Assembly: GCA_965279525.1 (NCBI GenBank)
Contig: CBDIIB010000005.1
Coordinates: 736,001-800,000 of the forward strand
DNA length: 64,000 bases
Origin: Tagaea sp.
GTDB lineage: Bacteria; Pseudomonadota; Alphaproteobacteria; CACIAM-22H2
Direction of reading: 5' to 3'
Part shown: piece by piece, positions 7,301-21,074 of the stretch
Layout of the letters: the number at the start of each line of letters is the position of its first letter
Position numbering within the stretch: the first letter of the stretch is position 1
The notes under the pieces: generated by a model
Databases searched by the model: none
What the model was told of the DNA's origin: nothing
Seen by the model: the letters and a program-made list of their open reading frames with translations, nothing else
Made by a program: the position numbers and the translations under genes

Positions 7301-10205
7301 CAGATTCTGGAACATATGTCGTAGAAAGCTTCTTCTCGGTATCTTTATAGACTTCCAACGCCCTGAGAGCGCGGCCTGCGGCTTCTGCTTTTGCCGTCAA
7401 ATTTGGAGCGAATGCAAAGCGGAGATCCAGACCATGCGAACCGACAATGGAATCAACGAGTGCAAGCGCTTGTTTGGTTTGCAGGAGTGTCGAAAACTGA
7501 AAATTAATTCCGGTCGCCGCTACTATTTCCGCACAAGCTTCATTGAAATGGCGCTCCTCTGATAGGAACCCCTGTGCCGCAGCGGCAACCTGTTCCTGCC
7601 AGGCGTTCGACCACTCAATATGGGTTAAGTGGGAGAGACGGTCCATCAGACCGGAGACCGGCTGGGAATTCATCTGCAGGCGTCGGACTGCATCACGCAT
7701 CCTGGCCATGTCCTGAGCATCATGCTCGACTGAATCAGGCCAAGTGAGCTTAGGCAGTACGTCTGAGCCATCGCGAACTACAAGGCCGATTGCCTCGTGT
7801 AGCGTCAGCCCATTTGGGGCACGCTTATGCAGGGAGCGGACAAGCGAATTGAGGCCGTCGCGTAAACGAGCAAGCTCGCTTGCTTCTCGAGTCCATTCGT
7901 CATGGGAGAGCGATTCGGCGACATTCCATGCTGCATCAAGCTGTTCGAGAACGGCCGTTTTCGTTGCCTTATTTGAGTGAAGCTCGAGACAGAAATTCGA
8001 AAGTTTCTTGTCTGCGAGGCGCCTATGCACGACCTCAAGCGCTGCCATTTTCTCAGCGACGAACAAGATTCGCCGACCCAATGCCAGATTATGCGCGATG
8101 ATATTTGCAATTGTCTGTGACTTACCGGTACCTGGCGGTCCGTCCAGCACAAAATCCATTCCATCAGCAGATGCTACAGCCGCAGCTATCTGGGAGGAAT
8201 CAGCCGGCAACGGCAAAAACAGCTTGCTCGGGTCAACCTTGTCATCGAGCGCTTCGGGTGGAATGTGCTGTCGTGCGTTCGAATAGGTTTCTGACTTTCG
8301 GTCCAGCAAGTGCCGCACGATCGGGCTATCGCGAAGACTTGCCGAACGATCAACCAAATCCTTCCACATCAGGTATTTGGAAAATGAAAATGTGCCGAGC
8401 ACGATGTCCGTCGAAACTTCGAAGCCTTTCGAATCTCTGACGGCAGAACGAACCATGTTCCACACGCGTAAAATATCAATCCCGTCATTGTCTGTCGGAA
8501 GAGGCCCCGCGAGCGCGTCAACATTCAATTCGAAATCCTGACGAAGCAGCTCGACCAATGTGAGATTGAATCGCGCCTCATCTTCATGCGCTTTTAGTGT
8601 AAAGCCTGAACGCGCGCTTCGCCGTTCAAGACGAACCGGCAATAGTATCAATGGGGCACGATTTACTCTTTGATCTGAATCGGTTTTCTTCCACCTCAGA
8701 AATCCAAGAGCAAGAAATAGGGTGTTTGCGCCACCTTCGTTTATGTCCGAACGCGACTTACGATAAAGCTCTACAAGTGCTGATTCATGGTTCTTTGGAT
8801 CTACGTCGCTGATGATCTCATCTTTACCCAGTGCCTCGCGCGCGACGTCTTCACGAAGATTTGTCCTTCGCTGTTGATCGTAGATCTCACTATCTCGGCC
8901 GCCGGATGCCAAATCCGGCATCGGAACGATTCGTATCGAGTGACCTGCGGCCAATCGATCCTCGAGCTTTGCTGGGTCATGACAAAGGATCGGAACGCAA
9001 CTACTTCCAGCCGGCAAATTCAAAAGCCTATTGCGGGCGGTGAGATCGAGAAGCTTTCTCTGCCATAGAGTAATTCGATCGAGAACCGCATCGGGTTTTG
9101 CGGCAATGGCATCACCAGATTCATCTGGCAGCGGCGGCGGCTCTTCGAGGCCTGGCGGCACATCCTCTTGCTGCGTAGCTTCTGATACTTCTTGAGGGCC
9201 GCGCAAATTGTCTAAAGGCTTGATTTGGCGCATTCGGCCGCGGCGAATGTCGATAACGGCGTAGAAGCCTTCATCATTTTCCGGCACCAGCAGGCGTCGC
9301 GCCTCTTGAACCGCTTGCGAGAATGACGGCGTGGGCACTTGAGTCGCGAACGTCGTCTCAAACACAACGATTTCTTCAAGGTCAAGTCGCTTACGGAGTG
9401 CCGCTGCCTCATCAGTTGCTATATCGGCGAACTCCCGAGACTGAAGCCAGGCGCCGGCGAATGCGTGCCCCTTGATCATAACAATCAAAGGATTTAGCCC
9501 CATCTGCTCCATTGCGGCGGCAAACAGTGTCGCCGTGTCGAGGCAGGTCGCGACGCGGCCCTCCAGGATCGCCCCTGGAGATCTTATTTTCTGACCTGAT
9601 TGCTCAAAGCTTGCAGGCGGAAGTGCATAACTGAGCCGCAATCCTGCTACAGCCGACCAAAGGGCCGATATCAATGTCCACGATCGTTGCCGCGACTTGG
9701 CTTCGTAACCATCCAAACCAGACGGCTTACCTGCGCGCCGTAAAGTCTCCGAGGCAGCTTTTAGTACTTTGTCGACGGCCGGATCGTTCGGCATTACGAA
9801 TGCGGGCAAAAGCTCGGCCATGGATGCCGTGCCGCCCCATTCTGACCGCGCGAGCACTTCAACTGGAGCATGGCTGGTAGCGATATCTGCCCCGTCCTTG
9901 ACCAAGCGAAGCGTGACGGTTCCGCGCACGGATTCAGTCAAGGCGCCGAGATAGGTCGCGTTAAGCTGGACGTTGCGGTCCGGAATTCGCAATGTCGTGT
10001 CTGGATCAATACGATCCAATCGCCATATCTTGTTAGTCAGGAATGGTGGATCTGCGACCAACTCCAGAACTAAGTCCGAGATCGGAATTGAGCTTTGGTT
10101 GACTATCGAGAGTTCGCGCAAAAGAGGTGCCGCATTCTGATGCGATGCGAACCCGATTTTCCCGGAGACGATGGACTGAATCTCGATATCCATGTAGATT
10201 TTCAC
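4365..10205 (-). CDS. Hhe-like antiphage protein: transglutaminase-like, DUF4011, SF1 helicase, Vsr-like nuclease, DUF3320 (alternative ATG at 10193)
   Basis: TCLD...GHAF (Cys/His), WQRKLLDLTARNRLL (DUF4011), GPPGTGKSQT, FDEASQ, GDHRQMPP, HYRS, VQGDERD, RRLNVAITRA, ESPFE...VECDG...RIWSTDW. Confidence 0.9.
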   Translation of the reverse strand: MKIYMDIEIQSIVSGKIGFASHQNAAPLLRELSIVNQSSIPISDLVLELVADPPFLTNKIWRLDRIDPDTTLRIPDRNVQLNATYLGALTESVRGTVTLRLVKDGADIATSHAPVEVLARSEWGGTASMAELLPAFVMPNDPAVDKVLKAASETLRRAGKPSGLDGYEAKSRQRSWTLISALWSAVAGLRLSYALPPASFEQSGQKIRSPGAILEGRVATCLDTATLFAAAMEQMGLNPLIVMIKGHAFAGAWLQSREFADIATDEAAALRKRLDLEEIVVFETTFATQVPTPSFSQAVQEARRLLVPENDEGFYAVIDIRRGRMRQIKPLDNLRGPQEVSEATQQEDVPPGLEEPPPLPDESGDAIAAKPDAVLDRITLWQRKLLDLTARNRLLNLPAGSSCVPILCHDPAKLEDRLAAGHSIRIVPMPDLASGGRDSEIYDQQRRTNLREDVAREALGKDEIISDVDPKNHESALVELYRKSRSDINEGGANTLFLALGFLRWKKTDSDQRVNRAPLILLPVRLERRSARSGFTLKAHEDEARFNLTLVELLRQDFELNVDALAGPLPTDNDGIDILRVWNMVRSAVRDSKGFEVSTDIVLGTFSFSKYLMWKDLVDRSASLRDSPIVRHLLDRKSETYSNARQHIPPEALDDKVDPSKLFLPLPADSSQIAAAVASADGMDFVLDGPPGTGKSQTIANIIAHNLALGRRILFVAEKMAALEVVHRRLADKKLSNFCLELHSNKATKTAVLEQLDAAWNVAESLSHDEWTREASELARLRDGLNSLVRSLHKRAPNGLTLHEAIGLVVRDGSDVLPKLTWPDSVEHDAQDMARMRDAVRRLQMNSQPVSGLMDRLSHLTHIEWSNAWQEQVAAAAQGFLSEERHFNEACAEIVAATGINFQFSTLLQTKQALALVDSIVGSHGLDLRFAFAPNLTAKAEAAGRALRALEVYKDTEKKLSTTYVPESARRIEWRSLIGLWHEAKAKIWPLSHFSKKKIAATLQAHGGTTTPPDPERDLPIIEVLAGSLSELDAVSADLSGMPGWAQLNSDSNQLRKAVELGLKLRQTISEFAGNPDELADIRQKVSRLVIDANDVLGEGGKIQRSLTTLKLSLSRLSAAASSLMTLSSGSPLDQIRSISTLASSIVESRAQLNAWCSWMRASNEAMSFGLSPIVDLAKAGLSAGSDLSQLFEIVYARWFAARTIDADPIIRNFVAAEHLAKIEDFRKLDDKLSDLSVRYIKTVLTKGIPRKDDALQDGGYAVLRHQLQLQRRHKPIRQLITDMGPAFTHLAPCMLMSPLSVAQYLPPDKTLFDLIIFDEASQIAPWDAIGVIARGKQLIVAGDHRQMPPTNFFSRGASSVDDDIDEDMESILDECKAAGLPQIGLTWHYRSQHESLIAFSNDRYYEGSLVTFPAPITKKSAVTWRKIDGVYSKGKSQTNSVEAQAMVDEVVRRLRDGAKSGAADSIAVVTLNSQQQALVEDLLDKARRGYPEIEPFFDEDITEPVVVKNLETVQGDERDVVLLGIGFGPTTQGSDTMSMHFGPLNREGGWRRLNVAITRAKKEMVVFTSFSPGMIDLHRTSARAVADLKHFIEFAERGPRALATSTRGSVGGYESPFEAAVAAELGTLGWRVIPQIGVSRFRIDLGVVHPDRLGDYLVGVECDGAMYHSGATARDRDKIRAAILEKLGWKLVRIWSTDWWIDKKGALARTHEAINQILSESREREASVANVVAAADAATAVYANIEVLPDNRVPEAPAVQVTEAEPVRELFARGASASATKGVVGTFRPANAQDSQLILDRNKFEDPDYVPTLVKLIAFVLECEAPMRDDVLVERVARAHGFQRSGDRIRDRVIKIARRSHFICKDPVGGRFAWLNEPQWAAWSIARKPFDDSSVRLIEDIASEEIRMAQQLCAGGDAPIEIARYFGIRRLSAAARDRIENALKA

Positions 10206-10303
10206 TCTACTTTGGGTCGACTTGGCGGCTTTAAGATGACATCATAAATGATCTTCGTCGAGATATCGTCTGACTCGAGAAGAATAATTGGCCGAGGCAC
10301 CGA

Positions 10304-11131
10304 ATGCACATCAGCATTGGCGGAACATTGGTCGCTTCTGCCACCTGGAATCCGATCTATTTAAAGAATTGTATCGGATCATATGAACTGTATTTTCCGT
10401 TTTCACTGATCGCGAGCGGCGCAGATCATTCCCTCAGCGCCCAGCTCCATGGTGCTCAGGTCGAGTTAAAGGGAATTTCGGACCGACGGATTGAGCTTGG
10501 CTACGCACGTCCGGAGCATCCAATATCGATCGATGGAGTTAAGCGCGAATGGATGTCGGCCTTCATCCTCCCGCTGTCGCCTCTCCATATCGAAGAGATA
10601 GAAGTGATACGGCGCGATACCGATCTGGATTTCGCACTCGATATTCGAGCCACTGCCCAGAAGGGCGATGAACGGCGACAGATTGATCAGAATGTCTGGC
10701 ACCAGCCGATGCCCCGCTCCAAATGGATCGACATCCTGGCGGCTGCCGGTGCCCACAGCTCCATACTGATAAATGTCGAATGTCCCGTCGCCGCCCGTGA
10801 TCCCGGCCGACAGGCAATTTTCACGCTATTCAAATCAGCTCAAGCCTCATTCATGCGAGGCGCTTATATGGAATGCATATCGACCTGCCGGACTGCTTTG
10901 GAAGCGGTTCAAAAATCGACTGCCAGGAACTTTCAAAATTCGTTTGATCTGTTGAATGGCGATCGCCGCTCGATTGGTAGAACTGAGCGCGAAAACCTTA
11001 TCGGCGCCGCGGTCCTCCTCTACACCCATAAAGCACATCACCTTGATGGCGGGCAGGCGCCTGAATTTGGCCCGAGCGATGCGAAATTCGTTCTCTCCAC
11101 GACGGCGGCAGTGATTCAAAAGCTTAGCTAA
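10304..11131 (+). CDS. Hypothetical protein with C-terminal HEPN/DUF4145-like helical domain
   Basis: C-term AQASFMRGAYMECISTCRTALE...YTHKAHH...DAKFVL resembles the HEPN layout; divergent from the helicase gene. Confidence 0.6.
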   Translation: MHISIGGTLVASATWNPIYLKNCIGSYELYFPFSLIASGADHSLSAQLHGAQVELKGISDRRIELGYARPEHPISIDGVKREWMSAFILPLSPLHIEEIEVIRRDTDLDFALDIRATAQKGDERRQIDQNVWHQPMPRSKWIDILAAAGAHSSILINVECPVAARDPGRQAIFTLFKSAQASFMRGAYMECISTCRTALEAVQKSTARNFQNSFDLLNGDRRSIGRTERENLIGAAVLLYTHKAHHLDGGQAPEFGPSDAKFVLSTTAAVIQKLS

Positions 11132-11262
11132 TATCCGCCAATAGCCCCAAGGCGGCTCGTTCGTTCGCTTAGAATTTCTGTCATTCACGTAAACTGTATT
11201 ATTGACACTAAAGCACGCAAAATCTGGCACCGGTTTATAGCTCTCAGGGGCCGGGCTTGGGC

Positions 11263-13581
11263 CTATAAGGCCGTCGGTCTACAAATGCTCTCGATAGCGT
11301 TGTAATGAACCGCATCACTGGCCTTCATTAATTCAACCAAGGAATTAGCTGCGCGGTCTGCCTCTTCTACAGTCATCGAAGATTGAGTGATCAGATCGTC
11401 GAGGCTATCACCATGCGACTCAACCTGGCTGAGGCGCTCGAGCGCAGCAAACTTTGTCCTGTCAATTTCCGGAGGCAATCCCGACAGGAGCTTCCGGATC
11501 TTCTCGTCCAAGCCGAAGGAACCGGGGACTTTGAATGACAAAAATACATCAAGAACTTTTCGTAGCGCGTTTGGCACAACGAAGAAGTAAGTAGCGGGGT
11601 CGTCAATCTTGCGAATGAAGCGAAGGATAAGGTGAAACAGATAGTGGTACTCAGATTCGTATTCGCGAATGTACTTAGGCATATTCTGGAATCTTGTCCG
11701 GCGATCGGTTTCTCCCGCCTTCTGAAACGAATTTAGAAACACGAGCGCGGCAGCTGGCTCTCTTCCGGTCTCTTCCTTGCTTCTCGCTCTATTCTTGAGC
11801 CACTTCTTAACTTCATTCATGAAGTTAAGGTTATGGGTCAAAATAAAAAGCTGTGAAATCGAATCATCTAATCGCGCCTTAAGCATGCAGAACGCATAGT
11901 TGAGCGCGCCGCTGTCCAAGCTCGAAATCGGATCGTCGAGGACAATGATCAAGTCTTTCAGGCGCCGGCCATCTGCTTCGAGCATTGTCAGGAAGTAGCA
12001 AAGGGCTATGGCGGTCCTTTCTCCTTCGCTGAGCCAGCCGGTCATCGGCGCTCCGCTTCTGAAAATTTCATATCCTTCATCACGAGGCCTGAACTCAATT
12101 TCGGTACGTCCGAGATAGTTCGCAATAAGCTTATTTAAGGTCTCGGCAGCCCCTTGATGCTCTCGCATACGACGCTTGAGGGCATCGATTTCTTCCCTTA
12201 CGGCATCACGCGCGATCTTCTTTTCTTTTGCAGTATCGACGGCGATTTTTTCGCTACTCTCCAGTGAAGCGTACTCTTCATAGTTTTCCCTAAGATAGTG
12301 GCGCCTCAAGGAGTTCTTGGCATGGTCCTGCTCCGTCGCAAAGTCGTCGTGCGCCTTATTATGGGCCCAGATCACATCCACTAAAGTTGCCATGCCGGTA
12401 GAGAGTAGGCGATCAACCTCAATTGAAGTCTCGGCACTGATCACCTTATCGAGATCTATCGCGACGTTCGGGCGACTTAACTTGGCCCTCAAAGCCGAGA
12501 CGAGAGATTCGAGAATCTCAATGCCTTTTCCCCGCGCCGTAGCAACAATCTCTGACGCGGACTTGAAGTCTTCTTGCCTGACTGAAATGTCATTCGAGGA
12601 GTACATCATCAGCGATCGAAATTTCTCCACGGAACGCGTCGTGGCATCGTGAAGGGTCTGAATTCCGGCAATTAGTGCGTCGTACTTGTCGTCAATCGCA
12701 GTCGCAAGGCTCTCCAAGCGGCCATGTGGGATATCACTTGAGCAAAACAAGCATTTCGATAGTTCCTTTGATTGGTGATACGAGATGCCCGTCTTGATCC
12801 ACGGCAGCATCGACTCGTTATCCTTTAGCTCTTTAAGCGAAATCGATCCGAGCGTAACGGCGAGACGATCACGGCACTCACTGACGAGCTCGGAGATAAA
12901 TAGATCTTCGAATGTTGGAACAACCAGCTTTGGCAGTGGCGCTGCTCGATCGGCAAGCGCTACGTAGCCCTTGATCTGGGCTTCGGTCACCTGAAGTGAA
13001 GTGCCAACGTCCGGATCTTCGCTGTAGGCCTTTGCAAGTTGAGTTGCATTAAATTTTCGCGCGCCTTGACGAGCATTCGCCTCGATGCTTCGAGCCATTG
13101 CCGTTTTTCTTGTCTCAAACGCCTTACTGGCTTCGCGCTGAGCTTTGTCTGCTCTCTCGTATTCTTCTTCGAGATCCGGGAGTTTTTTTTCCAAAGTTTC
13201 GCGCTGTTTTGCGAGATCAGCTTGCGCCTTTCCAATAAAGTAAATCGGACTTGCGCTTCCTGAAGTCCACTGGAGATTCTCGTCCACGAAATCACCATTG
13301 AACACAAGAATGCGGTCTTTCAAGCGATCAAGATTGCGGTCGCTTTGAATCTCAGATGCATCGTCAAGTGAGAATTTGAAGCCAGATTCGGGAGGCAGCT
13401 TGTCGGCTATTGCACCTTTCTGAATTGATGCAAAAACCCGTGATAGCGACGTCTTTCCAGAACCATTGAATCCATAAATGAGATTGTAGCGTTTGAACTC
13501 AGGCAGATCAGACACGACCGCAGGATCCCGAAATACATGAATGCCTGTAATCGATGAAATCTTGGAAATGATCGGCGGCAT
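11263..13581 (-). CDS. rloC: RloC-like anticodon nuclease (AAA_13 ABC-ATPase, zinc hook, HEPN)
   Basis: GFNGSGKT Walker A, CLFC zinc hook in coiled coil, LSEGE signature, LDDPISSLD Walker B, LTHN, ESEYHYLF, PNALRKVL, Rx6H (RLSQVESH); GGAGG RBS before ATG 13581. Confidence 0.88.
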   Translation of the reverse strand: MPPIISKISSITGIHVFRDPAVVSDLPEFKRYNLIYGFNGSGKTSLSRVFASIQKGAIADKLPPESGFKFSLDDASEIQSDRNLDRLKDRILVFNGDFVDENLQWTSGSASPIYFIGKAQADLAKQRETLEKKLPDLEEEYERADKAQREASKAFETRKTAMARSIEANARQGARKFNATQLAKAYSEDPDVGTSLQVTEAQIKGYVALADRAAPLPKLVVPTFEDLFISELVSECRDRLAVTLGSISLKELKDNESMLPWIKTGISYHQSKELSKCLFCSSDIPHGRLESLATAIDDKYDALIAGIQTLHDATTRSVEKFRSLMMYSSNDISVRQEDFKSASEIVATARGKGIEILESLVSALRAKLSRPNVAIDLDKVISAETSIEVDRLLSTGMATLVDVIWAHNKAHDDFATEQDHAKNSLRRHYLRENYEEYASLESSEKIAVDTAKEKKIARDAVREEIDALKRRMREHQGAAETLNKLIANYLGRTEIEFRPRDEGYEIFRSGAPMTGWLSEGERTAIALCYFLTMLEADGRRLKDLIIVLDDPISSLDSGALNYAFCMLKARLDDSISQLFILTHNLNFMNEVKKWLKNRARSKEETGREPAAALVFLNSFQKAGETDRRTRFQNMPKYIREYESEYHYLFHLILRFIRKIDDPATYFFVVPNALRKVLDVFLSFKVPGSFGLDEKIRKLLSGLPPEIDRTKFAALERLSQVESHGDSLDDLITQSSMTVEEADRAANSLVELMKASDAVHYNAIESICRPTAL

Positions 13582-13715
13582 AGATTTCGTCCCTCCGGAG
13601 AAGGGTACGCTCCAAGATTGCGCAATTTGTGTCAACATACATCTGTAATGTGGGAACCTGGTTGCGTGCTCTGGGCATCGAAGCGAGGAATCTGCCTCCG
13701 TAATTCTTATCGTTC

Positions 13716-13811
13716 GGTAGGGGGCCAGGGATTCGAACCCTGCCGTTCCAGGCTATCTGCCCAGTCTCGCGCGAGTATAAGCCGCGCCCGCACTTACCAG
13801 TGCTGCCCCCC
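13716..13811 (-). tRNA. Non-canonical tRNA-like gene, anticodon UAU (Ile-type), long variable arm
   Basis: Minus strand: GGGGGGC A GCAC TGGTAA GTGC GG GCGCGG CT-TAT-AC TCGCGC [GAGA CTGGGC AGATA GCCTGG AACGG] CAGGG TTCGAAT CCCTG GCCCCCT A CCG; 7-bp acceptor, 4-bp D, 6-bp anticodon and 5-bp T stems all pair. Confidence 0.85.
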
Positions 13812-13836
13812 AAAGGAACACGATGTTGCTGCAGGC

Positions 13837-15879
13837 TTAGGGCCTCGGACGACGATCCGGATCGTTCTTCCCGATCGTGAAATTGTTCCGCAGCGCCCCT
13901 TTGTCGTGGAGTTCCTTGCGATCCATGACCCGGAATTCCTTTGGAATGTCCTTCCGCGGATAGAAGCGCGTCGGCATCCCCCGCAGCGAGAGCGGCTTAA
14001 TACGGAAGAACGTGCAACTTCCGACGATAAGGTCGGGATGGATTTTTCGACCGGGCTGCTTATCCTCATAGGTCCGCCGCAGCTTGTTCTGCGAGATGTA
14101 CTGCCGGTCGAACGCGTCGAGATCCCCCGTGAGGACACGCGCTGCAGGCCCGCCATGCAGGTCGCGGTATTCCTGCAAATACCCATCGCGAATTAGTGCT
14201 GAGACTGCTGTCTTATCGACCATCAGCCGCTTGGCAACCTGTTCCAGAGAGTGGGTCGGATTTTTGATCCCCATCTCCGCGTAGGCCCATTTGTGGGCAC
14301 TATCCCGATCGAAGATCATGCGCTCAAGGAGGTTGTGCTCCTCGGGATCGAACTTGATCGGGATCAGCTTCCCGCTCAGCACCGCGCTCACGACGGTCGA
14401 CCACGGATAGTCGACATTCTTCTTCAGCATTTCGACGACGACCTTCGTCGTGACCTGGGTGCCCGAGATGAGCATGGGGCGGACACTCGCCTCGAGTGCC
14501 GTAGCGATGGCGTCAATCTCCGCGCGCCGGTATAGCGCCTTAGCCATGCCGACCAGACGCAGGTACTCCGGCTCCACCTGCTTGAGCAGGCCGCTGTCGC
14601 ATAGATCGGCCACGACATCGTGCCTCAGGCGCCATTCTCCCCGGAGGGTTCGCGCGGAGATCATGCTCTGTAGGGCCGACATCACCTCATCGACCTTCTT
14701 CCGGCTGATCCGGAGAGGCGTACCGCTTCCCTGCCCCTCGGACAGCAGAACACCGGGGAATTTCAGGAGCTCGGTGATCCGTCGGTGGCTCCAGCCGTAC
14801 TTGGCCTTCACGTCCCGGAGCATGATGCCGTCGGAAACGTCCCCGACGGCTTCGGCCAGCGGGGTACCGGCTTTCAGGGAGATTTCGGGATGTGCCTCGA
14901 GAAAGGACCGGACGGCCGGAACGACCACGGCCCAGATCTCAGCTTCTGCACTCCATTCCCGCAGCAGGATCTGGAAGTAGCCGAATGCCTTCTTGGTCCC
15001 GTAGGCGCCAGCCCGCTCCTCCGAGATCATCTTCTCCTCCTCCAGATAGCCAAGGAGGGCATCCGGCCAGCCCGTGGCGATCTGGTAGGCGTGCAGCACG
15101 GCCTGGGACCAGTCGAGATGCGTGGTCCGGTGTCCCGGCTTCCTGGGCTCGATCAAGCGATCGACCGCGTTCTTTGGCCTCCGAGCGGCCTTCTCCTCGT
15201 CCATGCCAGCGGCCAGCGAGAACACGAACTTGAAGAGCCTACCGGTACCAAGATCCCGGATCTCGGGTGCCAGAGCCTCGCTGGCAGCCTTGGCCCGCTC
15301 GGGATCGAGGGATACGAGGTCGGCAAGCCCGGCAATCGCCACCCGGGTATCTTCGTCGACCTGATCGGGGGCCCCCGCCGCGATCGGCTCCCCACAGGCG
15401 TGGCAGGTCAGGAAGTCCGACTTGCCCCAGGAGAACTCAGTATCGCAGTGCGGGCAGGCCCCGATCAGACGCTCACCGTTCGCCGGATCGGCGATGACGA
15501 AGGTCAGGTCCCAGGACATCCGATGAATGCCCGTCGCTCTGAAGTCATGGGGTGCGATCCGGGGTGAGCCCCCGGAGAACACCGCCCGCTCGATCCAGTT
15601 CCCAGCGAAGCAGACCAGACTGACGAACTCCGGGACCGCCTCATAGCGACGCCGATCCAGCTCGGCTTTGGACACACCCAACCGCGCTGCGACTGCCTCC
15701 AGGCCGGCCCCCGTCCGGTGGAACTCAGACAGGCTGCGGGCTTCCGCCTCCGTCGCCGGGAGGATCGAAGACGGCCCCGGCAGTACGAGATCCTTAGCGA
15801 CGCGAAGGAAGTAGCCGTTGAGGCTCTCGTCCGGCTGCAGAGAGAGCGTGATGGAGAAGGCGGTCGTGATCTTATCCAT
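13837..15879 (-). CDS. tniQ: TniQ/TnsD-like target selector, 680 aa, with long HTH-containing C-terminus
   Basis: N-term PDESLNGYFLRVA, zinc finger CPHC...CHAC, C-terminal wHTH-like SLEQVAKRLMVDKTAVSALIRDGYL; last gene of the tns operon. Confidence 0.9.
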   Translation of the reverse strand: MDKITTAFSITLSLQPDESLNGYFLRVAKDLVLPGPSSILPATEAEARSLSEFHRTGAGLEAVAARLGVSKAELDRRRYEAVPEFVSLVCFAGNWIERAVFSGGSPRIAPHDFRATGIHRMSWDLTFVIADPANGERLIGACPHCDTEFSWGKSDFLTCHACGEPIAAGAPDQVDEDTRVAIAGLADLVSLDPERAKAASEALAPEIRDLGTGRLFKFVFSLAAGMDEEKAARRPKNAVDRLIEPRKPGHRTTHLDWSQAVLHAYQIATGWPDALLGYLEEEKMISEERAGAYGTKKAFGYFQILLREWSAEAEIWAVVVPAVRSFLEAHPEISLKAGTPLAEAVGDVSDGIMLRDVKAKYGWSHRRITELLKFPGVLLSEGQGSGTPLRISRKKVDEVMSALQSMISARTLRGEWRLRHDVVADLCDSGLLKQVEPEYLRLVGMAKALYRRAEIDAIATALEASVRPMLISGTQVTTKVVVEMLKKNVDYPWSTVVSAVLSGKLIPIKFDPEEHNLLERMIFDRDSAHKWAYAEMGIKNPTHSLEQVAKRLMVDKTAVSALIRDGYLQEYRDLHGGPAARVLTGDLDAFDRQYISQNKLRRTYEDKQPGRKIHPDLIVGSCTFFRIKPLSLRGMPTRFYPRKDIPKEFRVMDRKELHDKGALRNNFTIGKNDPDRRPRP

Positions 15880-15881
15880 CG

Positions 15882-16925
15882 TTACGTCTCCTCATCGACG
15901 GTATCGTCATTCGTCGATCCGTCCCGAGCACCGCTACCCCGATTCCGGGTCGTGAGTTCGCCAGCCGCCGAGCGGAGCGCCTTCTCCGATTTTGTCATCT
16001 TGCGAGTAGGCTTCTTCTTTCTCGACGTCGCATCGTCAACCTCGTAGCCCTCCTCCTGATCAGGTAGGAGAGCGCACACGGCTGTTTGGATTGCGTCCTC
16101 GTCGACCCCGGCGCGCTTCCTACTGCGCGCCTCACGGGAAGCTTCTTCGACGAGGTTGAAGATCCATCCGAAAAGCCCATTTGTGTAGGCGAGCATACGG
16201 CTCGCGACTTCCTCACTGCAGAGGTAGTCGGTGTCCGGGCATCCGAAGGCCTTCGAGTACTCGTTGAGAACACTCCGGAACTCGATGAATTCCGAAGCCT
16301 TCAGTTCCTCCCCGCCACTACGTCGGAAGTCCGGGTTCTGCGTGTCGCAGAACCCACGCAACCGAATGTTACGAATACGGCGGCGACGAACCTGCTCGTC
16401 CATCTGGATGACCATCTCGGATTCTTCGACACCGGCCATGACGATCCCGATCCTGGCATCATTCATCAGGCCTTTGATCGCATCACATACACCGGCCCGA
16501 TCTGTTCCGACCTTTCTGGTCAGATGCTGGAATTCATCCAGAACCAGCACGCGCACACCATGGTGCTTGAGGAAATGGACAAGCCGATTCCGGCGACTTC
16601 CGTTCGTCTCTCTGTTCAAGGTAGGTGCACCCAGCACAGTCAGAATTTCATCGTAGAATCCTTGCAGCGACGGATTGCTCGGCACCTTCACATAGGAAAC
16701 CGGCCGGATCGGTCGACCATTCTCTGTGCAGGGTGGGTGAAGCTCTACGAAGCTTTCGAGAATCGTCGATTTTCCACTACCTGCAGGTCCAATGACGGAA
16801 GCACATCGACCCTCGCGCCCATCGACTGCGACTTCGTAGAACCGCTCGAGATCCGACATCGCCCGCGTGAACTGACGCGTGTCGAGAACCATCGCATGAA
16901 CCTGTTTCCGAAGTGCTTCATCCAT
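15882..16925 (-). CDS. tnsC: TnsC/TniB AAA+ transposition ATPase
   Basis: Walker A GPAGSGKST, Walker B LVLDEFQHL, QVRRR arginine finger, TNGLFG. Confidence 0.92.
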   Translation of the reverse strand: MDEALRKQVHAMVLDTRQFTRAMSDLERFYEVAVDGREGRCASVIGPAGSGKSTILESFVELHPPCTENGRPIRPVSYVKVPSNPSLQGFYDEILTVLGAPTLNRETNGSRRNRLVHFLKHHGVRVLVLDEFQHLTRKVGTDRAGVCDAIKGLMNDARIGIVMAGVEESEMVIQMDEQVRRRRIRNIRLRGFCDTQNPDFRRSGGEELKASEFIEFRSVLNEYSKAFGCPDTDYLCSEEVASRMLAYTNGLFGWIFNLVEEASREARSRKRAGVDEDAIQTAVCALLPDQEEGYEVDDATSRKKKPTRKMTKSEKALRSAAGELTTRNRGSGARDGSTNDDTVDEET

Positions 16926-16942
16926 AGCTGGTCTCCTCGTGG

Positions 16943-19000
16943 TTACTTGGGTTGAAGGGACGTCTTCTTGAAGGTGTAGAGCGGAGCCTGAGCCGAGCTG
17001 GCCGAAGTGCCTGACGCCTTACGAACTTTGCCGGCGTGCCGCTTCACCGAGGGGATCGGCGTCGAAGCACCCGCGGTAGGCTTTGCTACTCGATGCCTTC
17101 CCGGCTCGTTCGACGGAGCTTCAGGGTTGAGCTTCCTCGGCCTACGTCGATTGATCTTGCCGATGTCTCTCATGATCTCCGCGCGAGCACGGCGATACTC
17201 CTGGTCCGTTCCGGGGGCTTTCTTGGACTTGAGACGTGCCTCGATCAGCCGGTGCATCCGCAGGGAAACACCTTCTCGCTTGCTCGGATCGACGGCGGGA
17301 ATCTCGACAAGTTGTCCAGATGCCGAATCCAGAACGAAGATCTTTCCGACGTCGTTCGGATCAAGGAGCGCTTCGACTACAGGATTCCGACGATGGTAGG
17401 CATGTGCATGGATGCGGATGCGCTCAACGGCGACACCGCCATATAGGATGCCCTCGACCCGGATTCCTGACCGGGTCGCCACGCTCTTTTGGCTCAGCAT
17501 GGTTGCTTCGCGGATTTCTCGTGCCGACAGTTTCACAGGCGGCGGAAACTTGACGCTCAAGTCATTCCAAGCTTGAAGGGGCGAACACCGAAGCGTGGAG
17601 TGGGGCTTCTTGTGATACAAGTCGCAGATGGTTCGTGCGATTAAGCTGTCAAGCTCTGCGAACGTCATACGGGCGTTTTCTTCCGGCTTACGATCAGCTT
17701 TCGCCGCGACATTGCTTTTCGTCGTACCGGCAATTCGATGAAGCAGGAAAGAGCAGAAAGACCCGAAGATTCTCTCGACCCTGGACTTCATATTGGGCGC
17801 ACGGGGCGGCAAGATGACAAAGTCGATATCGAGATTCCGCAGCGCTTCCTGAACTGCATGGCTCAGGAAGTCCTTTCCCCGATCGGTCACCAGCTCGATA
17901 GGAACGCCGAAGATAGGCCAGTCCGACTTAACGCCGAGTGAGTTCAGGAAAGCTCGCGTTTTCGGGAGCATCGCGAAGCGGAGTGTGGCCAGAACAGCAG
18001 AGGCATCCGGCGCTGCGACGTCGAGCAAATATCCGGGGATCATTCTGGTTTTATGGTCAATGATGGCCGTAAGCCAGACACGCCCGACAGTGACGCAGCC
18101 CTCGTCATCGAGGATATCCAGATCGATTTTTGTATGGTCGATCTCCCAGCGTGCCATTGGACCAAGAGAGTCGGGCCCGGCCATCGACTGCTTGTAGTTG
18201 AAGCGGGCGATCCGCTTTCCTTCTTCATGTTCCAGGCGCCGCAACCCACCCATCGCCTCGAGGCGACGCTTGATCGTCGAAATCGAGGGCCGCGGCCCTG
18301 TTGAAAGACGAGCATCTCGAGAGATCTTCTCGTGGAGATCTGTTTCGATTAGAGCGATTGCTCCTGCATAGTTTGCCTCATCTGCGTCGAAGTAGTGTTC
18401 GGCGCATAGTTCGGCCATCCAGATCTCGATCAGCGGATCGCAACGAGGACCACTCGTTCCACGAAGATGGAATTGGGGCACAAGGAGACTTTTGTTGGCA
18501 CTTTTCCACGCCTGTTTGATCCATCTGTAGATGGTTGCACGCGATGGAGCGTTCCGACCTTGCAGCCATTTCGGGTAGCCAGTTTTTTCGAAGTGCGTCT
18601 GGTGAATTTCGAGGGCTTTTTCCTTGGTGAATGCTGAGATTGTCCCGTTGGGTTCGATCGAACCGAACGCTTTGACGAAAGCCGCACGATAATTGGCGTG
18701 CTCTGCGTATGTCACACCACTGACGGTTCTTCGAAGAAGCGCCGTCATGAACGTGTCTTTGCGTACTCCGACTTTAGTCGGCGCCACATTGACGACGATC
18801 TTCTCGTCCATGAATTTCGTCATGAACTCGTCACGCGTTAGCTGGAAGTGGCGTCCGGTTCTGAGTGAGACGAACGTGACACTTCCGCCCGGGTTCTCCC
18901 CGCTGATGCGACATTGTTCCCCGTCGATCTCGAACGAGCTTCCGAGGCGAAAGCCGAACGCGACAGTGGGAACCGGAGGGAACGAATTTCGGGTAGACAT
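16943..19000 (-). CDS. tnsB: TnsB/TniA DDE transposase (Mu-like C-terminus)
   Basis: WEIDHT (D), VTDRGKDF (D), KSRVERIF (E), YHKKPHSTL, HTH APSRATIYRW. Confidence 0.93.
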   Translation of the reverse strand: MSTRNSFPPVPTVAFGFRLGSSFEIDGEQCRISGENPGGSVTFVSLRTGRHFQLTRDEFMTKFMDEKIVVNVAPTKVGVRKDTFMTALLRRTVSGVTYAEHANYRAAFVKAFGSIEPNGTISAFTKEKALEIHQTHFEKTGYPKWLQGRNAPSRATIYRWIKQAWKSANKSLLVPQFHLRGTSGPRCDPLIEIWMAELCAEHYFDADEANYAGAIALIETDLHEKISRDARLSTGPRPSISTIKRRLEAMGGLRRLEHEEGKRIARFNYKQSMAGPDSLGPMARWEIDHTKIDLDILDDEGCVTVGRVWLTAIIDHKTRMIPGYLLDVAAPDASAVLATLRFAMLPKTRAFLNSLGVKSDWPIFGVPIELVTDRGKDFLSHAVQEALRNLDIDFVILPPRAPNMKSRVERIFGSFCSFLLHRIAGTTKSNVAAKADRKPEENARMTFAELDSLIARTICDLYHKKPHSTLRCSPLQAWNDLSVKFPPPVKLSAREIREATMLSQKSVATRSGIRVEGILYGGVAVERIRIHAHAYHRRNPVVEALLDPNDVGKIFVLDSASGQLVEIPAVDPSKREGVSLRMHRLIEARLKSKKAPGTDQEYRRARAEIMRDIGKINRRRPRKLNPEAPSNEPGRHRVAKPTAGASTPIPSVKRHAGKVRKASGTSASSAQAPLYTFKKTSLQPK

Positions 19001-19069
19001 CGGTTACTCCAGGCAAAGCTCGGGTGTGGCTCAGGTTGAGCTTTCATTTCGGGTGCAGGACTTGGCTTG

Positions 19070-19834
19070 TTAGGCGGAAACTATCAGGCGGCTTTCGAGA
19101 CCGAGTTTGGCCTCCATGTCCGTATCGAGGACTTGCCTGGCGACAAGGGCGTAGATGTCAACCTCATGCACGGCGTCGGCGCGGAATACTTCGACGATCT
19201 TGCGTACAGTCACGTTCGGGTACCGCTTGATCGTTGCCCTGATACTGGCGACCATCGGCGCTTCTACACGTCGGTTCCGATAGTGCCAGAGCAGTTTCCG
19301 GTTGGAGTACTGGGGCTCGATCCGGATTTCTCGCTCTGTCAGAACACGATATGACCAGCCGAGTTGCTCGAAAACCTCGCGCTCTCCTCGGAAGCGCGGG
19401 TTCTCGCGTAGATGTTTCTCGAACGTGGAAAAGGTCTTGATCTGAACGATTTCGAACCGTCCACCGATCAGCCTCAGTTCGACGTCCGGATATGTCGAGA
19501 CAACCTTCTCTCCGACCTCGTAGACCACCGTGAAGGGCTGCGTAGTGTAGGAAACGACGCCCCTGTCGAAGTGGAACATCTTGAAGGCATCGGCCTCCAG
19601 GCCCGATTCGGCTTCTCCGATACCGATCGATTTTGGACTTGCGATCCTCTGCGTTGGTCGAATTCCATAGCCTGGCCTGACCTCCCGGGATGGTTTTCCG
19701 TCAGCCGCTTGCACGATGCTGCCGCAGACACCTTCCGAGGTTCGGAATCGCAGGATGTATTTGCCTTCGACTGGGCCCTTCGCAAAGCGAAACGGCCCCT
19801 CTGAAGGTTTGCTTTTGTGACGTGACTTTGACAT
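19070..19834 (-). CDS. tnsA: TnsA endonuclease
   Basis: ESGLE, QPF, YPD...VQIK PD-(D/E)xK-type motifs, GWSYRVLTEREI, C-terminal wHTH. Confidence 0.88.
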   Translation of the reverse strand: MSKSRHKSKPSEGPFRFAKGPVEGKYILRFRTSEGVCGSIVQAADGKPSREVRPGYGIRPTQRIASPKSIGIGEAESGLEADAFKMFHFDRGVVSYTTQPFTVVYEVGEKVVSTYPDVELRLIGGRFEIVQIKTFSTFEKHLRENPRFRGEREVFEQLGWSYRVLTEREIRIEPQYSNRKLLWHYRNRRVEAPMVASIRATIKRYPNVTVRKIVEVFRADAVHEVDIYALVARQVLDTDMEAKLGLESRLIVSA

Positions 19835-19974
19835 CAGAACCTCTCCTGCTCGATATCGCCAGGACCAGTACCGGACATGCGCAGACGGTCTTCGGCGTCG
19901 CCGGAAGTTCGATCTGTCAGGTCTGGAAGGTCGCCAGTCGGCCCAGGGGCCGACGCCTCACGCGTCGCCGCTGG

Positions 19975-20079
19975 TTAGCGGGATATCGAGATCAGGTGAG
20001 GAAGGGCGCGGTTCATGATGGAAACGTTGTACCTGAAATTTTCGGAAGTTTCAACAATCCGATTCAACGTGGCAGACAT
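19975..20079 (-). CDS. Putative 34-aa small protein upstream of tnsA
   Basis: AAAGGAGAG RBS 5 nt before ATG; MSATLNRIVETSENFRYNVSIMNRALPHLISISR. Confidence 0.4.
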   Translation of the reverse strand: MSATLNRIVETSENFRYNVSIMNRALPHLISISR

Positions 20080-20475
20080 CGTCGCTCTCCTTTGCAACCG
20101 AACGCGGCGCGAGCTGGCGTTCGGCAACACAGCGCCGAGTTGTTTTCGGCGCACACACGCCAAGGCTGATTGCCAAGCGCAGGGGAATAGAACATCAGTG
20201 CCGCATTGGTTTTGCACAGAAAAATTGTGTAACTGTCAAGTATATCTATTGAACAAACTCAAGTAATTTAGTAAATATATCAATTATGGTGCTTATTTGT
20301 TCGTCTTTCATATAATAAATGAACTTGAATACTTAGACACTGACAAACGTGTCGATCTTTCCCAACCGGTTCCAGTGGGTCGTTCAATTTGCCGCGCCCG
20401 GTCTTCTGCGGACATCATTAGGGCATTTGCCAGCACGCAGATCGGTTGCCTACCTGTTACCTGTGATCACTGGGC

Positions 20476-20856
20476 CTACTTTGAAACCATGCGCCCTTGA
20501 AGCCAGAAGACGCCTGCAACGTCCGAGCCTTCGACAGGCTGCTCATCGGATTTCCACACGTGATCGCCGATATAGAGCGCAAGTTTGAAGTCGCCGTAGC
20601 TGTCGGGCAGGCGAAGTGGCGTGATCACAAGGGAAGTAAGCTTTCGGCCAAATACTTCGATCTTCTCGATCCACCGGACGGGTCCTTGATACTGGTACTC
20701 GTCAGGCGCGTACGTGTCCTGGGGAATAAGGGCGGCTACACCCTTCATGCTGATCGTGATCGGCTTGAGTTGGTCGCCCGGGGTGCCTGGCTCGTTCTTC
20801 GTCCGGAGGCGGGCGGGATCGTCGATGACGATCGGCTCTGTCCTGTCGATCTTCGT
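20476..20856 (-). pseudogene. 5'-truncated fragment of a hypothetical protein gene near the transposon end
   Basis: Protein-like 90-aa ORF (DEYQYQGPV...GVFWLQG) whose frame continues 36 codons upstream without a start, up to an in-frame TGA. Confidence 0.5.
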
Positions 20857-20895
20857 TCACTGCGTCTGGCGGGCCGTCTTTGAGGCGTCAAATCA

Positions 20896-20916
20896 GCCCA
20901 AAGGACGCCTTTGGGC
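20896..20916. terminator. Perfect 9-bp hairpin inside the transposon end (possible block to gyrB read-through)
   Basis: GCCCAAAGG-ACG-CCTTTGGGC. Confidence 0.45.
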
Positions 20917-20998
20917 AGGGGGTCGAGTCAGAGAAAGTGAGATTCCGGAAATCAATACTTCCGGATTATTTGTTATCTGTCAGATAGATATGCGGATA

Positions 20999-21066: not shown

Positions 21067-21074
21067 AACCCCAC

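What the first reader, a model, noticed from the sequence alone, without database searches (positions are those of the whole stretch)
11263..15879. Non-canonical tRNA-like RNA (anticodon UAU) between TniQ and an RloC-like anticodon nuclease: candidate undescribed RNA-protein system
Seen: 25 nt after the tniQ stop and ~135 nt before rloC, on the same strand, is a fully pairing cloverleaf (13718-13811, 94 nt) with a perfect T-arm (CAGGG-TTCGAAT-CCCTG) and a UGG-containing D-loop. It deviates from normal tRNAs: G1.U72 pair, a single nt (A, no U8) between acceptor and D stems, 6-bp anticodon stem, 26-nt variable region with its own 6-bp stem, and encoded 3' end ACCG. Established: RloC is a DNA-damage/phage-activated ABC-ATPase-HEPN nuclease that excises the tRNA wobble nucleotide; most bacteria avoid tRNA-Ile(UAU) and use lysidine-modified CAU; non-canonical 'allo-tRNAs' have been described. 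Inference, three options: (a) a U34 decoy or antitoxin RNA that restrains or tunes RloC, (b) a toxic or AUA-decoding tRNA serving the AT-richer cargo, or (c) a cofactor co-transcribed with the tns operon.
Basis: partly seen in the sequence, partly recalled or inferred. Interest (0 to 1): 0.9.

Follow-up and report, generated by a model that had tools for sequence, protein, structure and literature searches.

The report
Phage-type AUA tRNA on a transposon
The odd cloverleaf is a real, intact tRNA gene with anticodon UAU from a poorly annotated family that normally sits in phage tRNA clusters; here a Tn7-like transposon carries it, and no comparison ties it to the neighbouring nuclease or to TniQ.

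Summary
A 96-nt tRNA-like gene (anticodon UAU, minus strand, 13716-13811) lies 25 nt after the tniQ-like gene and 77-135 nt before an RloC-like AAA_13/PDC-S06 gene, inside a Tn7-like transposon inserted next to gyrB.

The headline idea of an RNA-protein system is not supported:
- 0 of 21 other PDC-S06 loci carry the RNA.
- 0 of 4 related tnsABC-tniQ loci carry it.
- None of its 3 bacterial or 107 viral homologues lies near any homologue of the element's proteins.

The RNA belongs to a tight family: 86 + 22 members in uncultivated viral contigs, and 77 of 86 loci hold three or more tRNAs.
- Covariation is strong: 97.2% of cells pair, 22 of 28 pairs change on both sides, 0 of 500 shuffles reach this.
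- Shared features are G1.U72, a single A linker, a compact D arm, a long variable arm with an N-G-A-N' loop, A73 and an encoded CCA.
- The anticodon is UAU in 107 members and CAU in one.

Best reading (about 0.55): an AUA (isoleucine) decoder of phage origin travelling as cargo. The cargo genes use AUA about six times more than host genes.

Rfam scores it only as a sub-threshold tRNA-Sec. It resembles the published allo-tRNA(UAU) but has a 7/5, not 8/4 or 9/3, acceptor branch.

The parts
13716..13811 (-). tRNA(UAU) gene. Acceptor 13811-13805 pairs with 13725-13719 (G1.U72). Linker A 13804. D arm 13803-13790. GG 13789-13788. Anticodon arm 13787-13769, anticodon UAU at 13779-13777. GAGA 13768-13765. 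Variable arm 13764-13748, loop AGAUA. AACGG 13747-13743. T arm 13742-13726. A73 at 13718. CC at 13717-13716, followed by G (13715) instead of A.
   Evidence: ARAGORN; sequence; fold; family alignment A4 and covariation.
13837..15879 (-). TniQ/TnsD-like target-selector gene (680 aa), last gene of the tnsA-B-C-tniQ operon.
   Evidence: PADLOC TniQ_IF E=4.6e-5. One of 15 homologues carries PF06527. Syntenic with tnsABC in relatives.
15882..16925 (-). tnsC / TniB-type AAA ATPase.
   Evidence: Pfam TniB E=3.4e-36.
16943..19000 (-). tnsB transposase (rve integrase core).
   Evidence: Pfam rve E=2.6e-6, 28.1 bits, below the curated cut-off of 32.6. 50% identity to the tnsB of relatives.
19070..19834 (-). 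tnsA-like endonuclease.
   Evidence: Pfam Tn7_TnsA-like_N E=1.7e-5; NCBIfam TnsA_like 55.2 bits, below the cut-off of 110.
11263..13638 (-). RloC-like AAA_13 ABC ATPase (PADLOC candidate defence gene PDC-S06), the first cargo gene after the tRNA.
   Evidence: Pfam AAA_13 E=9.2e-133 over residues 44-765. PADLOC PDC-S06 E=7.7e-159 and PrrC E=3.4e-13 over residues 501-747. A CLFC (CXXC) motif is seen in the translation. No PDB relative.
4365..10205 (-). ProA-type anti-phage helicase/nuclease (cargo).
   Evidence: NCBIfam antiphage_ProA 2098.5 bits, cut-off 1500; PADLOC PDC-S37/Hhe; Pfam DUF4011, AAA_11/12, MTES_1575.
2972..4357 (-). DUF4236 protein (cargo, AUA-rich).
   Evidence: Pfam DUF4236 E=6.2e-21; 7 AUA in 462 codons.
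2790..21070 (.). Approximate extent of the Tn7-like element. The ends are inferred, not mapped. The right end lies just after the gyrB stop codon (21075); the left end lies between the DUF4236 gene and a host solute-binding-protein gene.
   Evidence: GC is 0.50-0.65 per kb inside against 0.64-0.73 in the host DNA beyond 21 kb. Sequences read. gyrB and ABC-transporter genes flank it. No long terminal inverted repeat was reported.

Best explanation
The feature is a functional-looking tRNA gene of a structurally non-canonical, phage-associated tRNA(UAU) family. The family has a 7-bp acceptor stem with G1.U72, one A linker, a compact GCAC/GUGC D arm, and a 5+1-bp anticodon stem with loop YUUAUAN. 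The variable arm is flanked by GAGA and AACGG, and the family keeps a 5-bp T arm, A73 and an encoded CCA. In viruses it sits inside tRNA arrays of T4-like phages. The most likely job is to read the rare isoleucine codon AUA without needing lysidine synthetase (TilS). In this window a copy has been picked up as cargo of a Tn7-like transposon, directly behind tniQ and ahead of AUA-richer defence genes. Shown: the gene, its family, its covariation, its genomic contexts and the codon-usage contrast. Inferred: that it is released by RNase P and 3' processing, completed by the host CCA-adding enzyme, charged (probably with isoleucine), and helps translate the cargo's AUA codons in a 67% GC host where AUA is scarce. 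Its position next to the RloC-like gene is best read as cargo adjacency, not a dedicated partnership.
For: Family membership: a single-sequence model of the window RNA scores 55-92 bits on 57 distinct viral sequences and 86.3 bits on one bacterial sequence. Covariation holds in four of the five helices; the D stem was fixed by the search pattern. Positions that were not in the search pattern are near-invariant, and the window RNA has all of them: linker A 59/59, GG 58-59/59, GAGA 52-55/59, V-loop G and A 59/59, the CGG of AACGG 59/59, and A73 59/59. tRNA-like behaviour: 85 of 86 viral members encode ACCA, and 77 of 86 loci hold three or more ARAGORN tRNAs. In Rfam output, members sit in register inside dense arrays, for example L253 449-541 between tRNAs at 373-443 and 557-627. 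The neighbouring genes are T4-like: RegA, clamp loader, Hsp20, dCMP deaminase and homing endonucleases. The anticodon is fixed even when it was not required by the pattern: 21 UAU and 1 CAU among 22 further members. CAU is the anticodon of ordinary lysidine-type tRNA-Ile2 (established knowledge). AUA use is 34 in 3477 codons (9.8 per 1000) in the four cargo ORFs. It is 1 in 1970 in the tns genes, and 1.5 per 1000 in 745 long host ORFs; that host figure is biased down by my GC3>0.75 filter. The host has a PolyA_pol/CCA-enzyme-type gene, so the missing terminal A need not be disabling. In river-metagenome contigs 83-92% alike, many well-supported differences are listed in both flanks but none inside 13716-13811 (that table is truncated).
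Against: There is no expression, processing or charging data: no RNA run holds the locus. The host already has TilS and three CAU tRNAs, so a helper is not required. PDC-S06 itself has only 3 AUA codons. This copy departs from the family in two ways: 3' ACCG instead of ACCA (57 of 59 have the final A) and two extra D-loop bases. Amino-acid identity is unknown. Mukai et al. 2017 (PMC5389517, sections 12 and 16 read) report that six allo-tRNA(UAU) species converted to CUA gave no activity in an E. coli CAT Ser146TAG assay. That assay detects only Ser or Ala and destroys the anticodon, and I could not check whether their sequences belong to this family. The family is rare in bacteria: 3 of about 349 other genomes searched. 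This copy could therefore be a passenger without benefit.
Confidence: 0.55

Rival explanations
1. It is an inactive relic: a phage tRNA gene dragged into the transposon's cargo with other foreign DNA, now neutral or decaying.
For: The family is overwhelmingly viral and rare in bacterial genomes. This copy has lost the encoded terminal A and has a 2-nt D-loop insertion relative to the family. It stands alone, not in an array. No sigma-70-like promoter was found nearby.
Against: All 28 modelled pairs are intact, and every family-invariant unpaired base except A76 is kept. Diverged relatives of the element in other metagenomes keep the arrangement, and no well-supported change is listed inside the tRNA while the flanks differ by 8-17%.
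Confidence: 0.2
2. It is a non-translational or mistranslating RNA of mobile elements, as Mukai et al. suggested for allo-tRNA(UAU). It could be a regulatory or toxic tRNA, for example charged with a non-Ile amino acid through its long variable arm, used in addiction or conflict between elements.
For: The architecture is tRNA-Sec/allo-like. Mukai 2017 links allo-tRNA(UAU) with transposon-related genes and toxin-antitoxin loci, and found two of six variants lethal in E. coli (section 16 read). Nematode V-arm tRNA-Ile(UAU) is mischarged with Leu (abstracts of PMC3333845 and PMC4300185 seen in listings). The discriminator A73 plus a long arm would also fit LeuRS rules (recalled).
Against: In phages the family sits as one member of ordinary tRNA arrays that also carry a standard tRNA-Ile(GAU) (one search shows this for the related standard-D-arm type). 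One family member has CAU. A mistranslating tRNA would harm an AT-rich phage that uses AUA heavily (inference). No toxin-antitoxin pair is recognisable next to it here.
Confidence: 0.15
3. It is the RNA partner (decoy, antitoxin, sensor or preferred substrate) of the adjacent RloC-like anticodon nuclease.
For: It is on the same strand, 77-135 nt upstream. No terminator-like site was found on that strand between them. The adjacency is kept in 83-92%-alike metagenome relatives, including one contig with a 53-nt deletion in the spacer. That agreement is by common descent, not independent.
Against: None of 21 other PDC-S06 loci drawn from 400 genomes of the phylum has any tRNA or model match within about 1.5 kb. 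None of 3 bacterial or 107 viral family members has an AAA_13 homologue in the fetched flanks. There are no tandem RNA repeats as in type III toxin-antitoxin systems.
Confidence: 0.07
4. It is a cofactor or guide of the Tn7-like transposition machinery, made with the tns operon.
For: It starts 25 nt after the tniQ stop on the same strand. Tn7-like elements are known to use RNA guides or to target tRNA genes (recalled; titles listed).
Against: The nearest available tnsABC-tniQ relatives (TniQ 62-63% identical in three loci, 29% in one) have no such RNA and carry different cargo after tniQ. The family's normal home is phage tRNA arrays with no tns genes. The element sits beside gyrB, not beside a tRNA.
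Confidence: 0.03

Closest known systems
allo-tRNA(UAU) and other allo-tRNAs (Mukai et al. 2017, PMC5389517; review PMC7609411)
   Same: Both surface as sub-threshold tRNA-Sec-like hits. Both have a long variable arm, a lengthened anticodon stem and a compact D arm. UAU is the predominant anticodon, and both are found with transposon-related genes.
   Different: Allo-tRNAs are defined by a 12-bp acceptor branch of 8/4 or 9/3, and mostly have G73 or U73. This family has 7/5, with covariation in the first T-stem pair, and an invariant A73. Its main home is phage tRNA arrays. Whether Mukai's UAU subgroup (their Supplementary Fig. S5) is the same family could not be checked, because supplements are closed.
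Bacterial tRNA-Sec (Rfam RF01852)
   Same: It is the best Rfam match. Both have a long variable arm, a 6-bp anticodon stem and a short D loop.
   Different: The score is 24.2 bits here and 30.9-35.3 bits for viral members, against a gathering score of 47. The anticodon is UAU, not UCA. The acceptor branch is 7/5, not 8/5, and there is one linker base.
AUA-decoding tRNA-Ile2: lysidine-type CAU tRNAs including the T4 phage tRNA-Ile, and the rare bacterial tRNA-Ile(UAU) such as in Mycoplasma mobile (recalled from memory)
   Same: The presumed job is the same: reading AUA. Phages carry such tRNAs in arrays. One family member has CAU. A73 is shared.
   Different: Those are ordinary class I cloverleaves with a 4-5-nt variable loop. 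This family has a long, sequence-conserved variable arm and a one-base linker.
Standard-D-arm long-variable-arm tRNA(UAU) of phage arrays, e.g. Synechococcus phage SynMITS9220M01, annotated tRNA-Ile
   Same: Shared features are anticodon loop CUUAUAC, frequent G1.U72, A73-CCA, and a variable-arm hairpin whose loop carries the same AGAU-type motif.
   Different: Those have a normal two-base linker, a normal D arm and a 5-bp anticodon stem. The window RNA belongs to the compact-D-arm group.
RloC/PrrC anticodon nucleases
   Same: The neighbouring gene has the AAA_13 architecture, a CXXC motif in the insert and a partial PrrC match.
   Different: As far as I recall, no RNA partner gene is part of the described RloC or PrrC systems, and none is found at 21 related loci here.

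Membership tests
Compact-D-arm phage tRNA(UAU) family (defined here, alignment A4) | 7-bp acceptor stem with G1.U72, and an invariant A73 | tested here: met
   The window has G1.U72 and A73. In the family, G.U occurs in 51/59 and 78/86, and A73 in 59/59.
Compact-D-arm phage tRNA(UAU) family (defined here, alignment A4) | Single A linker, GCAC/GUGC D stem, GG spacer, GAGA and AACGG around a 6-bp variable stem with an N-G-A-N' loop | tested here: met
   All are present in the window RNA. The D loop is 6 nt here against 4 nt in 51 of 59.
Compact-D-arm phage tRNA(UAU) family (defined here, alignment A4) | Anticodon UAU in a 7-nt loop YUUAUAN | tested here: met
   The window loop is CUUAUAC. Among 22 members found without requiring the anticodon, 21 have UAU and 1 has CAU.
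Compact-D-arm phage tRNA(UAU) family (defined here, alignment A4) | Encoded 3' CCA | tested here: not met
   The window has CCG. The family has ACCA in 85/86.
Compact-D-arm phage tRNA(UAU) family (defined here, alignment A4) | Located in a phage tRNA array | tested here: not met
   It is the only tRNA in the 64-kb window and lies on a Tn7-like element. The three other bacterial copies also stand alone.
allo-tRNA (Mukai 2017) | 12-bp acceptor branch arranged 8/4 or 9/3 | tested here: not met
   The first T-stem pair covaries (CG 19, AU 16, UA 14, GC 10 of 59) and all 7 acceptor pairs covary. The linker A cannot pair with the G at the end of the T stem in the window.
allo-tRNA (Mukai 2017) | tRNA-Sec-like look: long variable arm, longer anticodon stem, short D loop | tested here: met
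   The sixth anticodon-stem pair is a standard pair in only 21 of 59.
allo-tRNA (Mukai 2017) | Sequence identity with the published allo-tRNA(UAU) group | not testable with these tools
   Those sequences are only in the paper's supplement, which is closed. The main text was read.
tRNA-Sec (RF01852) | Score at or above the gathering threshold; UCA anticodon | tested here: not met
   24.2 bits against 47; the anticodon is UAU.
Dedicated RNA-protein system with RloC-like PDC-S06 | RNA and protein genes co-occur across independent loci | tested here: not met
   0 of 21 PDC-S06 loci. 0 of 110 other family RNAs lie near an AAA_13 homologue.
Dedicated RNA-protein system with TniQ / Tn7-like core | The RNA is conserved after tniQ in related elements | tested here: not met
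   0 of 4 loci. It is present only in close (83-92% alike) metagenome variants of the same element.
RloC (neighbouring gene) | ABC ATPase with a coiled-coil insert bearing CXXC, plus a C-terminal PrrC-like anticodon-nuclease domain | tested here: inconclusive
   AAA_13 matches over the full length. A CLFC motif is seen. The PrrC model matches residues 501-747 at E=3.4e-13. Catalytic residues and activity were not tested.
Tn7-like transposon | tnsA, tnsB, tnsC and a tniQ/tnsD-type selector in one operon | tested here: met
   The ends are only approximately placed.

The most novel reading that the evidence does not exclude
The conserved variable-arm module (GAGA, a 6-bp stem, an N-G-A-N' loop whose first and fourth bases covary A..U to G..C, then AACGG), together with G1.U72 and A73, may be a built-in recognition handle. 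It would let isoleucyl-tRNA synthetase, or a modification enzyme, accept a U34 tRNA. That would give T4-like phages, and here a transposon, a TilS-independent AUA decoder of a previously unrecognised tRNA architecture. On this element it would act as a translational key carried with the AUA-rich defence cargo.
Probability: 0.15. Interest if true: 0.75.

Novelty: new member of a known kind. Interest (0 to 1): 0.45.

Why it matters
**For this locus.** The result removes a tempting but unsupported story of a tRNA-like antitoxin or guide. It replaces it with a testable one: a mobile AUA-decoding tRNA travelling with defence cargo in a high-GC host.

**More broadly.** More than 100 related genes in phage tRNA arrays escape standard annotation:
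- Rfam scores them below threshold, as tRNA-Sec.
- ARAGORN calls a UAU tRNA in only 36 of 86 loci.

These genes share an unusual, strongly conserved architecture with a fixed UAU anticodon.

**If they are charged with isoleucine.** They would show how phages and other mobile elements read AUA without depending on the host's lysidine pathway. They would also offer a natural scaffold with a protein-recognisable variable arm.

**If they are not.** They would be a widespread mistranslating or regulatory tRNA.

**Published precedent.** Either way, the conclusion that allo-tRNA(UAU) is 'not used for translation' deserves re-testing. It rested on a Ser/Ala-only reporter after the anticodon had been changed.

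Tried and rejected
**Searches that led nowhere**
- BLAST of the 96-nt RNA against 400 genomes of the phylum gave only T-arm matches and one chance match inside a coding ORF (L002).
- blastn against plasmids found nothing. tblastn of TniQ against plasmids gave two matches at 23-24% identity, which I did not follow.
- An integrase-type att duplication of the tRNA 3' end: no repeat of 11 nt or more of the tRNA region lies elsewhere in the element, apart from one 11-mer at 3221 on the other strand. Rejected.
- Long terminal inverted repeats of the element were not found by the repeat finder. The ends are therefore placed only by GC content and reading.
- Other candidate allo-like tRNAs in the genome flagged by ARAGORN (Asp-atc, Ile-gat 93 nt, 'cacg', Lys-ctt 84 nt, Arg-tcg 91 nt) lack T-loop features. 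I take them as false positives in GC-rich coding DNA.

**Ideas weakened**
- The idea that the variable loop mimics the GAU anticodon loop of tRNA-Ile. It fits the common loops CAGAUUA, CAGAUAA and CUGAUAA. It is weakened by the GGAC variant and by A..U to G..C covariation of the flanking loop bases. I keep it only inside the novel case.
- gyrB as a shared attachment site. gyrB was not seen in the 2 kb upstream of tnsA in L014 and L015. No conclusion.

**Expression and reads**
- No RNA holder was listed for the locus.
- Summed contig depth is highest over the tRNA bins in two river metagenomes. Contig depth cannot rank parts, so I make no claim from it.

- Supplements of PMC5389517 were not available.

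**Print searches for a description of long-variable-arm phage tRNA(UAU)**
- Searches listed none. This covers only the held library.

Full report
**1. The observation**

ARAGORN reports one tRNA in the whole window: tRNA-Ile(tat) at 13716-13811 on the minus strand, 96 nt. Reading that strand gives:
- acceptor GGGGGGC paired with GCCCCCU, so a G1.U72 pair;
- a single A linker;
- D arm GCAC-UGGUAA-GUGC, followed by GG;
- anticodon stem GCGCGG/UCGCGC with loop CUUAUAC;
- GAGA, then variable stem CUGGGC/GCCUGG with loop AGAUA, then AACGG;
- T arm CAGGG-UUCGAAU-CCCUG;
- A73, then CCG.

The gene starts 25 nt after the stop of the 680-aa tniQ-like ORF. It ends 77 nt before the longest start of the next ORF, or about 135 nt if Met20 is used.

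Alone, the fold is only modestly better than shuffles: z = -2.39, and 4 of 200 shuffles fold as well. Rfam gives only a sub-threshold tRNA-Sec match, 24.2 bits against 47.

**2. Surroundings**

All genes below lie on the minus strand.

| Coordinates | Gene | Evidence |
|---|---|---|
| 21075-23762 | gyrB (host) | |
| 19070-19834 | tnsA-like | |
| 16943-19000 | tnsB (rve) | |
| 15882-16925 | tnsC/TniB | |
| 13837-15879 | tniQ-like | |
| 13716-13811 | tRNA(UAU) | |
| 11263-13638 | AAA_13 / PADLOC PDC-S06 | AAA_13 E=9.2e-133; PDC-S06 E=7.7e-159; partial PrrC match; CXXC seen |
| 4365-10205 | ProA anti-phage gene | 2098.5 bits |
| 2972-4357 | DUF4236 | |

- An unassigned ORF on the other strand lies at 10304-11131.
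- GC is 0.50-0.65 per kb across roughly 2.8-21 kb, against 0.64-0.73 in the host DNA beyond 21 kb.
- The tRNA is therefore inside a Tn7-like element of about 18 kb, at the junction between the transposition operon and a defence-gene cargo.
- On the minus strand no promoter-like or terminator-like site was found around it. Co-transcription with its neighbours is plausible but not shown.

**3. Test of the proposed partnerships**

*(a) RloC-like gene.*
- The PADLOC family PDLC04894 was found in 21 other genomes of 400 sampled from the phylum.
- ARAGORN finds no tRNA in any of the 21 loci, each with about 1.5 kb of flank. One locus has a tmRNA.
- The window-derived model with filters off finds nothing in 19 of them. 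The family model finds nothing in the other two.

*(b) TniQ.*
- The four reachable relatives are three with TniQ 62-63% identical and one at 29%. All have syntenic tnsABC.
- None has a tRNA or a model match.
- In the one locus examined (L014), the gene after tniQ is different.

*(c) Close variants.*
- Only close variants of the same element keep tniQ-tRNA-PDC-S06. These are contigs 83-92% alike in river metagenomes, and one has a 53-nt deletion in the spacer.
- That agreement is by descent and is not independent evidence.

**4. What the RNA is related to**

*First homologue.* A model built from the window RNA alone found one strong homologue among 49 other genomes of the order: G435, 86 bits.
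- It has compensatory changes in every stem, keeps UAU, and encodes ACCA.
- It sits upstream of an unrelated AAA ATPase.

*Viral family.* A pattern taken from the shared D arm and anticodon loop then hit 109 stretches of viral contigs.
- 86 are full family members, 57 of them distinct.
- 85 of 86 end in ACCA, and 78 of 86 have G1.U72.
- 77 of 86 loci carry three or more other tRNAs.

*Covariation.* Aligned to the model (59 distinct sequences including the window), the structure is strongly supported.
- 97.2% of cells pair.
- 22 of 28 pairs change on both sides.
- 0 of 500 shuffles reach the observed values, and slid controls pair at 29-44%.
- The D stem never varies, but it was fixed by the search pattern.
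- The innermost anticodon-stem pair is a standard pair in only 21 of 59.

*Conserved positions that were not in the pattern*:
- the A linker, 59/59;
- GG, 58-59/59;
- GAGA, 52-55/59;
- the variable-loop G-A, 59/59, whose flanking bases covary (A..U 49, G..C 7);
- the CGG of AACGG, 59/59;
- A73, 59/59;
- a U54/A58 to A54/U58 swap in 18 of 59.

The window RNA has all of these.

*Phage type.* Neighbouring viral genes are typical of T4-like phages: RegA, clamp loader, Hsp20, dCMP deaminase and homing endonucleases. None of 107 viral loci has a homologue of any of the eight element proteins.

*Annotation gap.* In Rfam the viral members are sub-threshold tRNA-Sec hits (35.3 and 30.9 bits) or not listed, although they sit in register inside arrays of normal tRNAs. 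ARAGORN calls a UAU tRNA in only 36 of 86 loci.

*Cultured phages.* They gave no match beyond the T arm.

*Bacteria.* With the family model:
- two more bacterial copies turned up among 150 genomes of the class, at 88 and 78 bits, and none among 150 of the phylum;
- their surroundings are unrelated to each other and to this window.

**5. Mechanism**

The family behaves like a translational tRNA:
- it is a member of phage tRNA arrays;
- it encodes CCA;
- its anticodon loop is canonical, with U33 and A37;
- a tertiary U54-A58 pair is preserved through a swap;
- all variable helices show full covariation.

Its anticodon is fixed to UAU, with one CAU. This points to the AUA codon, the codon for which T4-type phages classically bring their own tRNA (recalled knowledge).

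Here the four cargo ORFs use AUA at 9.8 per 1000 codons (34 of 3477). The tns genes use it at 0.5 per 1000. In 745 long host ORFs it is 1.5 per 1000, a figure pushed down by my GC3 filter.

The host has TilS, three CAU tRNAs and a CCA-enzyme-type gene. The tRNA would therefore be a helper, not a necessity, and the missing terminal A can be added.

I therefore favour a phage-derived AUA decoder riding as cargo (0.55). Processing, charging and benefit are all inferred.

The rivals are:
- a neutral relic (0.2);
- a mistranslating or regulatory tRNA of mobile elements (0.15);
- an RloC partner (0.07);
- a transposition cofactor (0.03).

**6. Comparison with what is known**

The closest description is the allo-tRNA class of Mukai et al. 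2017. They note that UAU species are the most abundant, look slightly different from standard allo-tRNAs, and lie near transposon-related and toxin-antitoxin genes (sections 12 and 16 read; review passages).

The defining 8/4 or 9/3 acceptor branch is not met here: the first T-stem pair covaries, so the branch is 7/5. The discriminator is A73, not G/U73.

Whether their UAU group is this family cannot be decided without their supplement.

Their negative translation test changed the anticodon to CUA and could detect only Ser or Ala. It therefore does not bear on an isoleucine identity (my inference).

My literature searches listed no description of long-variable-arm phage tRNA(UAU), within the held library only.

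**7. Verdict**

The feature is real and intact. The proposed RNA-protein system is not supported. The locus is a new, transposon-borne member of a non-canonical tRNA(UAU) kind whose family-level biology is under-described and worth testing.

I rate interest at 0.45. The most novel reading that survives (0.15) is that the conserved variable-arm module is a recognition handle enabling TilS-independent AUA decoding.

Noticed in passing
viral loci L023-L141 (e.g. L038:12861-12954, L043:7704-7797, L095:7352-7452): A second, larger-looking group of phage-array tRNAs has anticodon loop CUUAUAC, a normal D arm and a long variable arm. Its hairpin loop is conserved as CAGAUUA, AGAUA, CAGAUAA or similar. 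69 viral candidates have a 7/7-paired acceptor stem, and 55 of 71 rows end in ACCA (the 71 rows include the window RNA and L143). Two cultured Synechococcus phages carry it; it is annotated tRNA-Ile in one and unannotated in the other.
   Followed up: partly
L284, L307, L319 (viral contigs): Three family genes have a normal 5' half up to the anticodon stem. AT-rich unrelated sequence and an ORF start then follow. This may be an insertion or intron at the anticodon loop, or a truncation.
   Followed up: no
L289:about 3414-3510 (viral contig): One family member has anticodon CAU (loop UUCAUAA) instead of UAU, as in lysidine-type tRNA-Ile2.
   Followed up: no
L337:5993-6206 (G000:C5:618492-618705, outside the window): Two irregular tRNA-like genes lie in tandem in a lower-GC patch. 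The first has a tRNA-Leu-like body with anticodon UGG and no CCA (Rfam tRNA 47 bits). The second is 103 nt, with a 7-bp 'anticodon' stem closed by a GCUA loop and a ~31-nt variable arm (33.8 bits; fold z = -3.5). They sit between DUF4340/unknown genes and SnoaL-like and ribonucleotide-reductase genes.
   Followed up: partly
window 19835-21070: About 1.2 kb separates tnsA from the inferred right end beside gyrB. It includes a very AT-rich stretch at about 20200-20340 and an unassigned 128-aa ORF (20497-20883, + strand). This is unusual spacing for a Tn7-like right end.
   Followed up: no
window 10304-11131 (+): A 275-aa ORF lies between PDC-S06 and ProA on the opposite strand. It has no Pfam, PADLOC or NCBIfam match and the highest AUA use in the element, 6 in 276 codons.
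   Followed up: no
alignment A4, T loop (columns 79 and 83): In 18 of 59 family members the T-loop bases at positions 54 and 58 are swapped from U...A to A...U (loop AUCGUAA). This is covariation of the tertiary reverse-Hoogsteen pair.
   Followed up: no
window 13693-13814: In two river metagenomes, the summed depth of contigs at least 80% alike is 2-6 times higher over the tRNA bins than over the flanks. One contig of a freshwater run diverges from the window inside the tRNA, at 13768. This hints that the tRNA also occurs in other contexts there. Contig depth is a weak measure.
   Followed up: no
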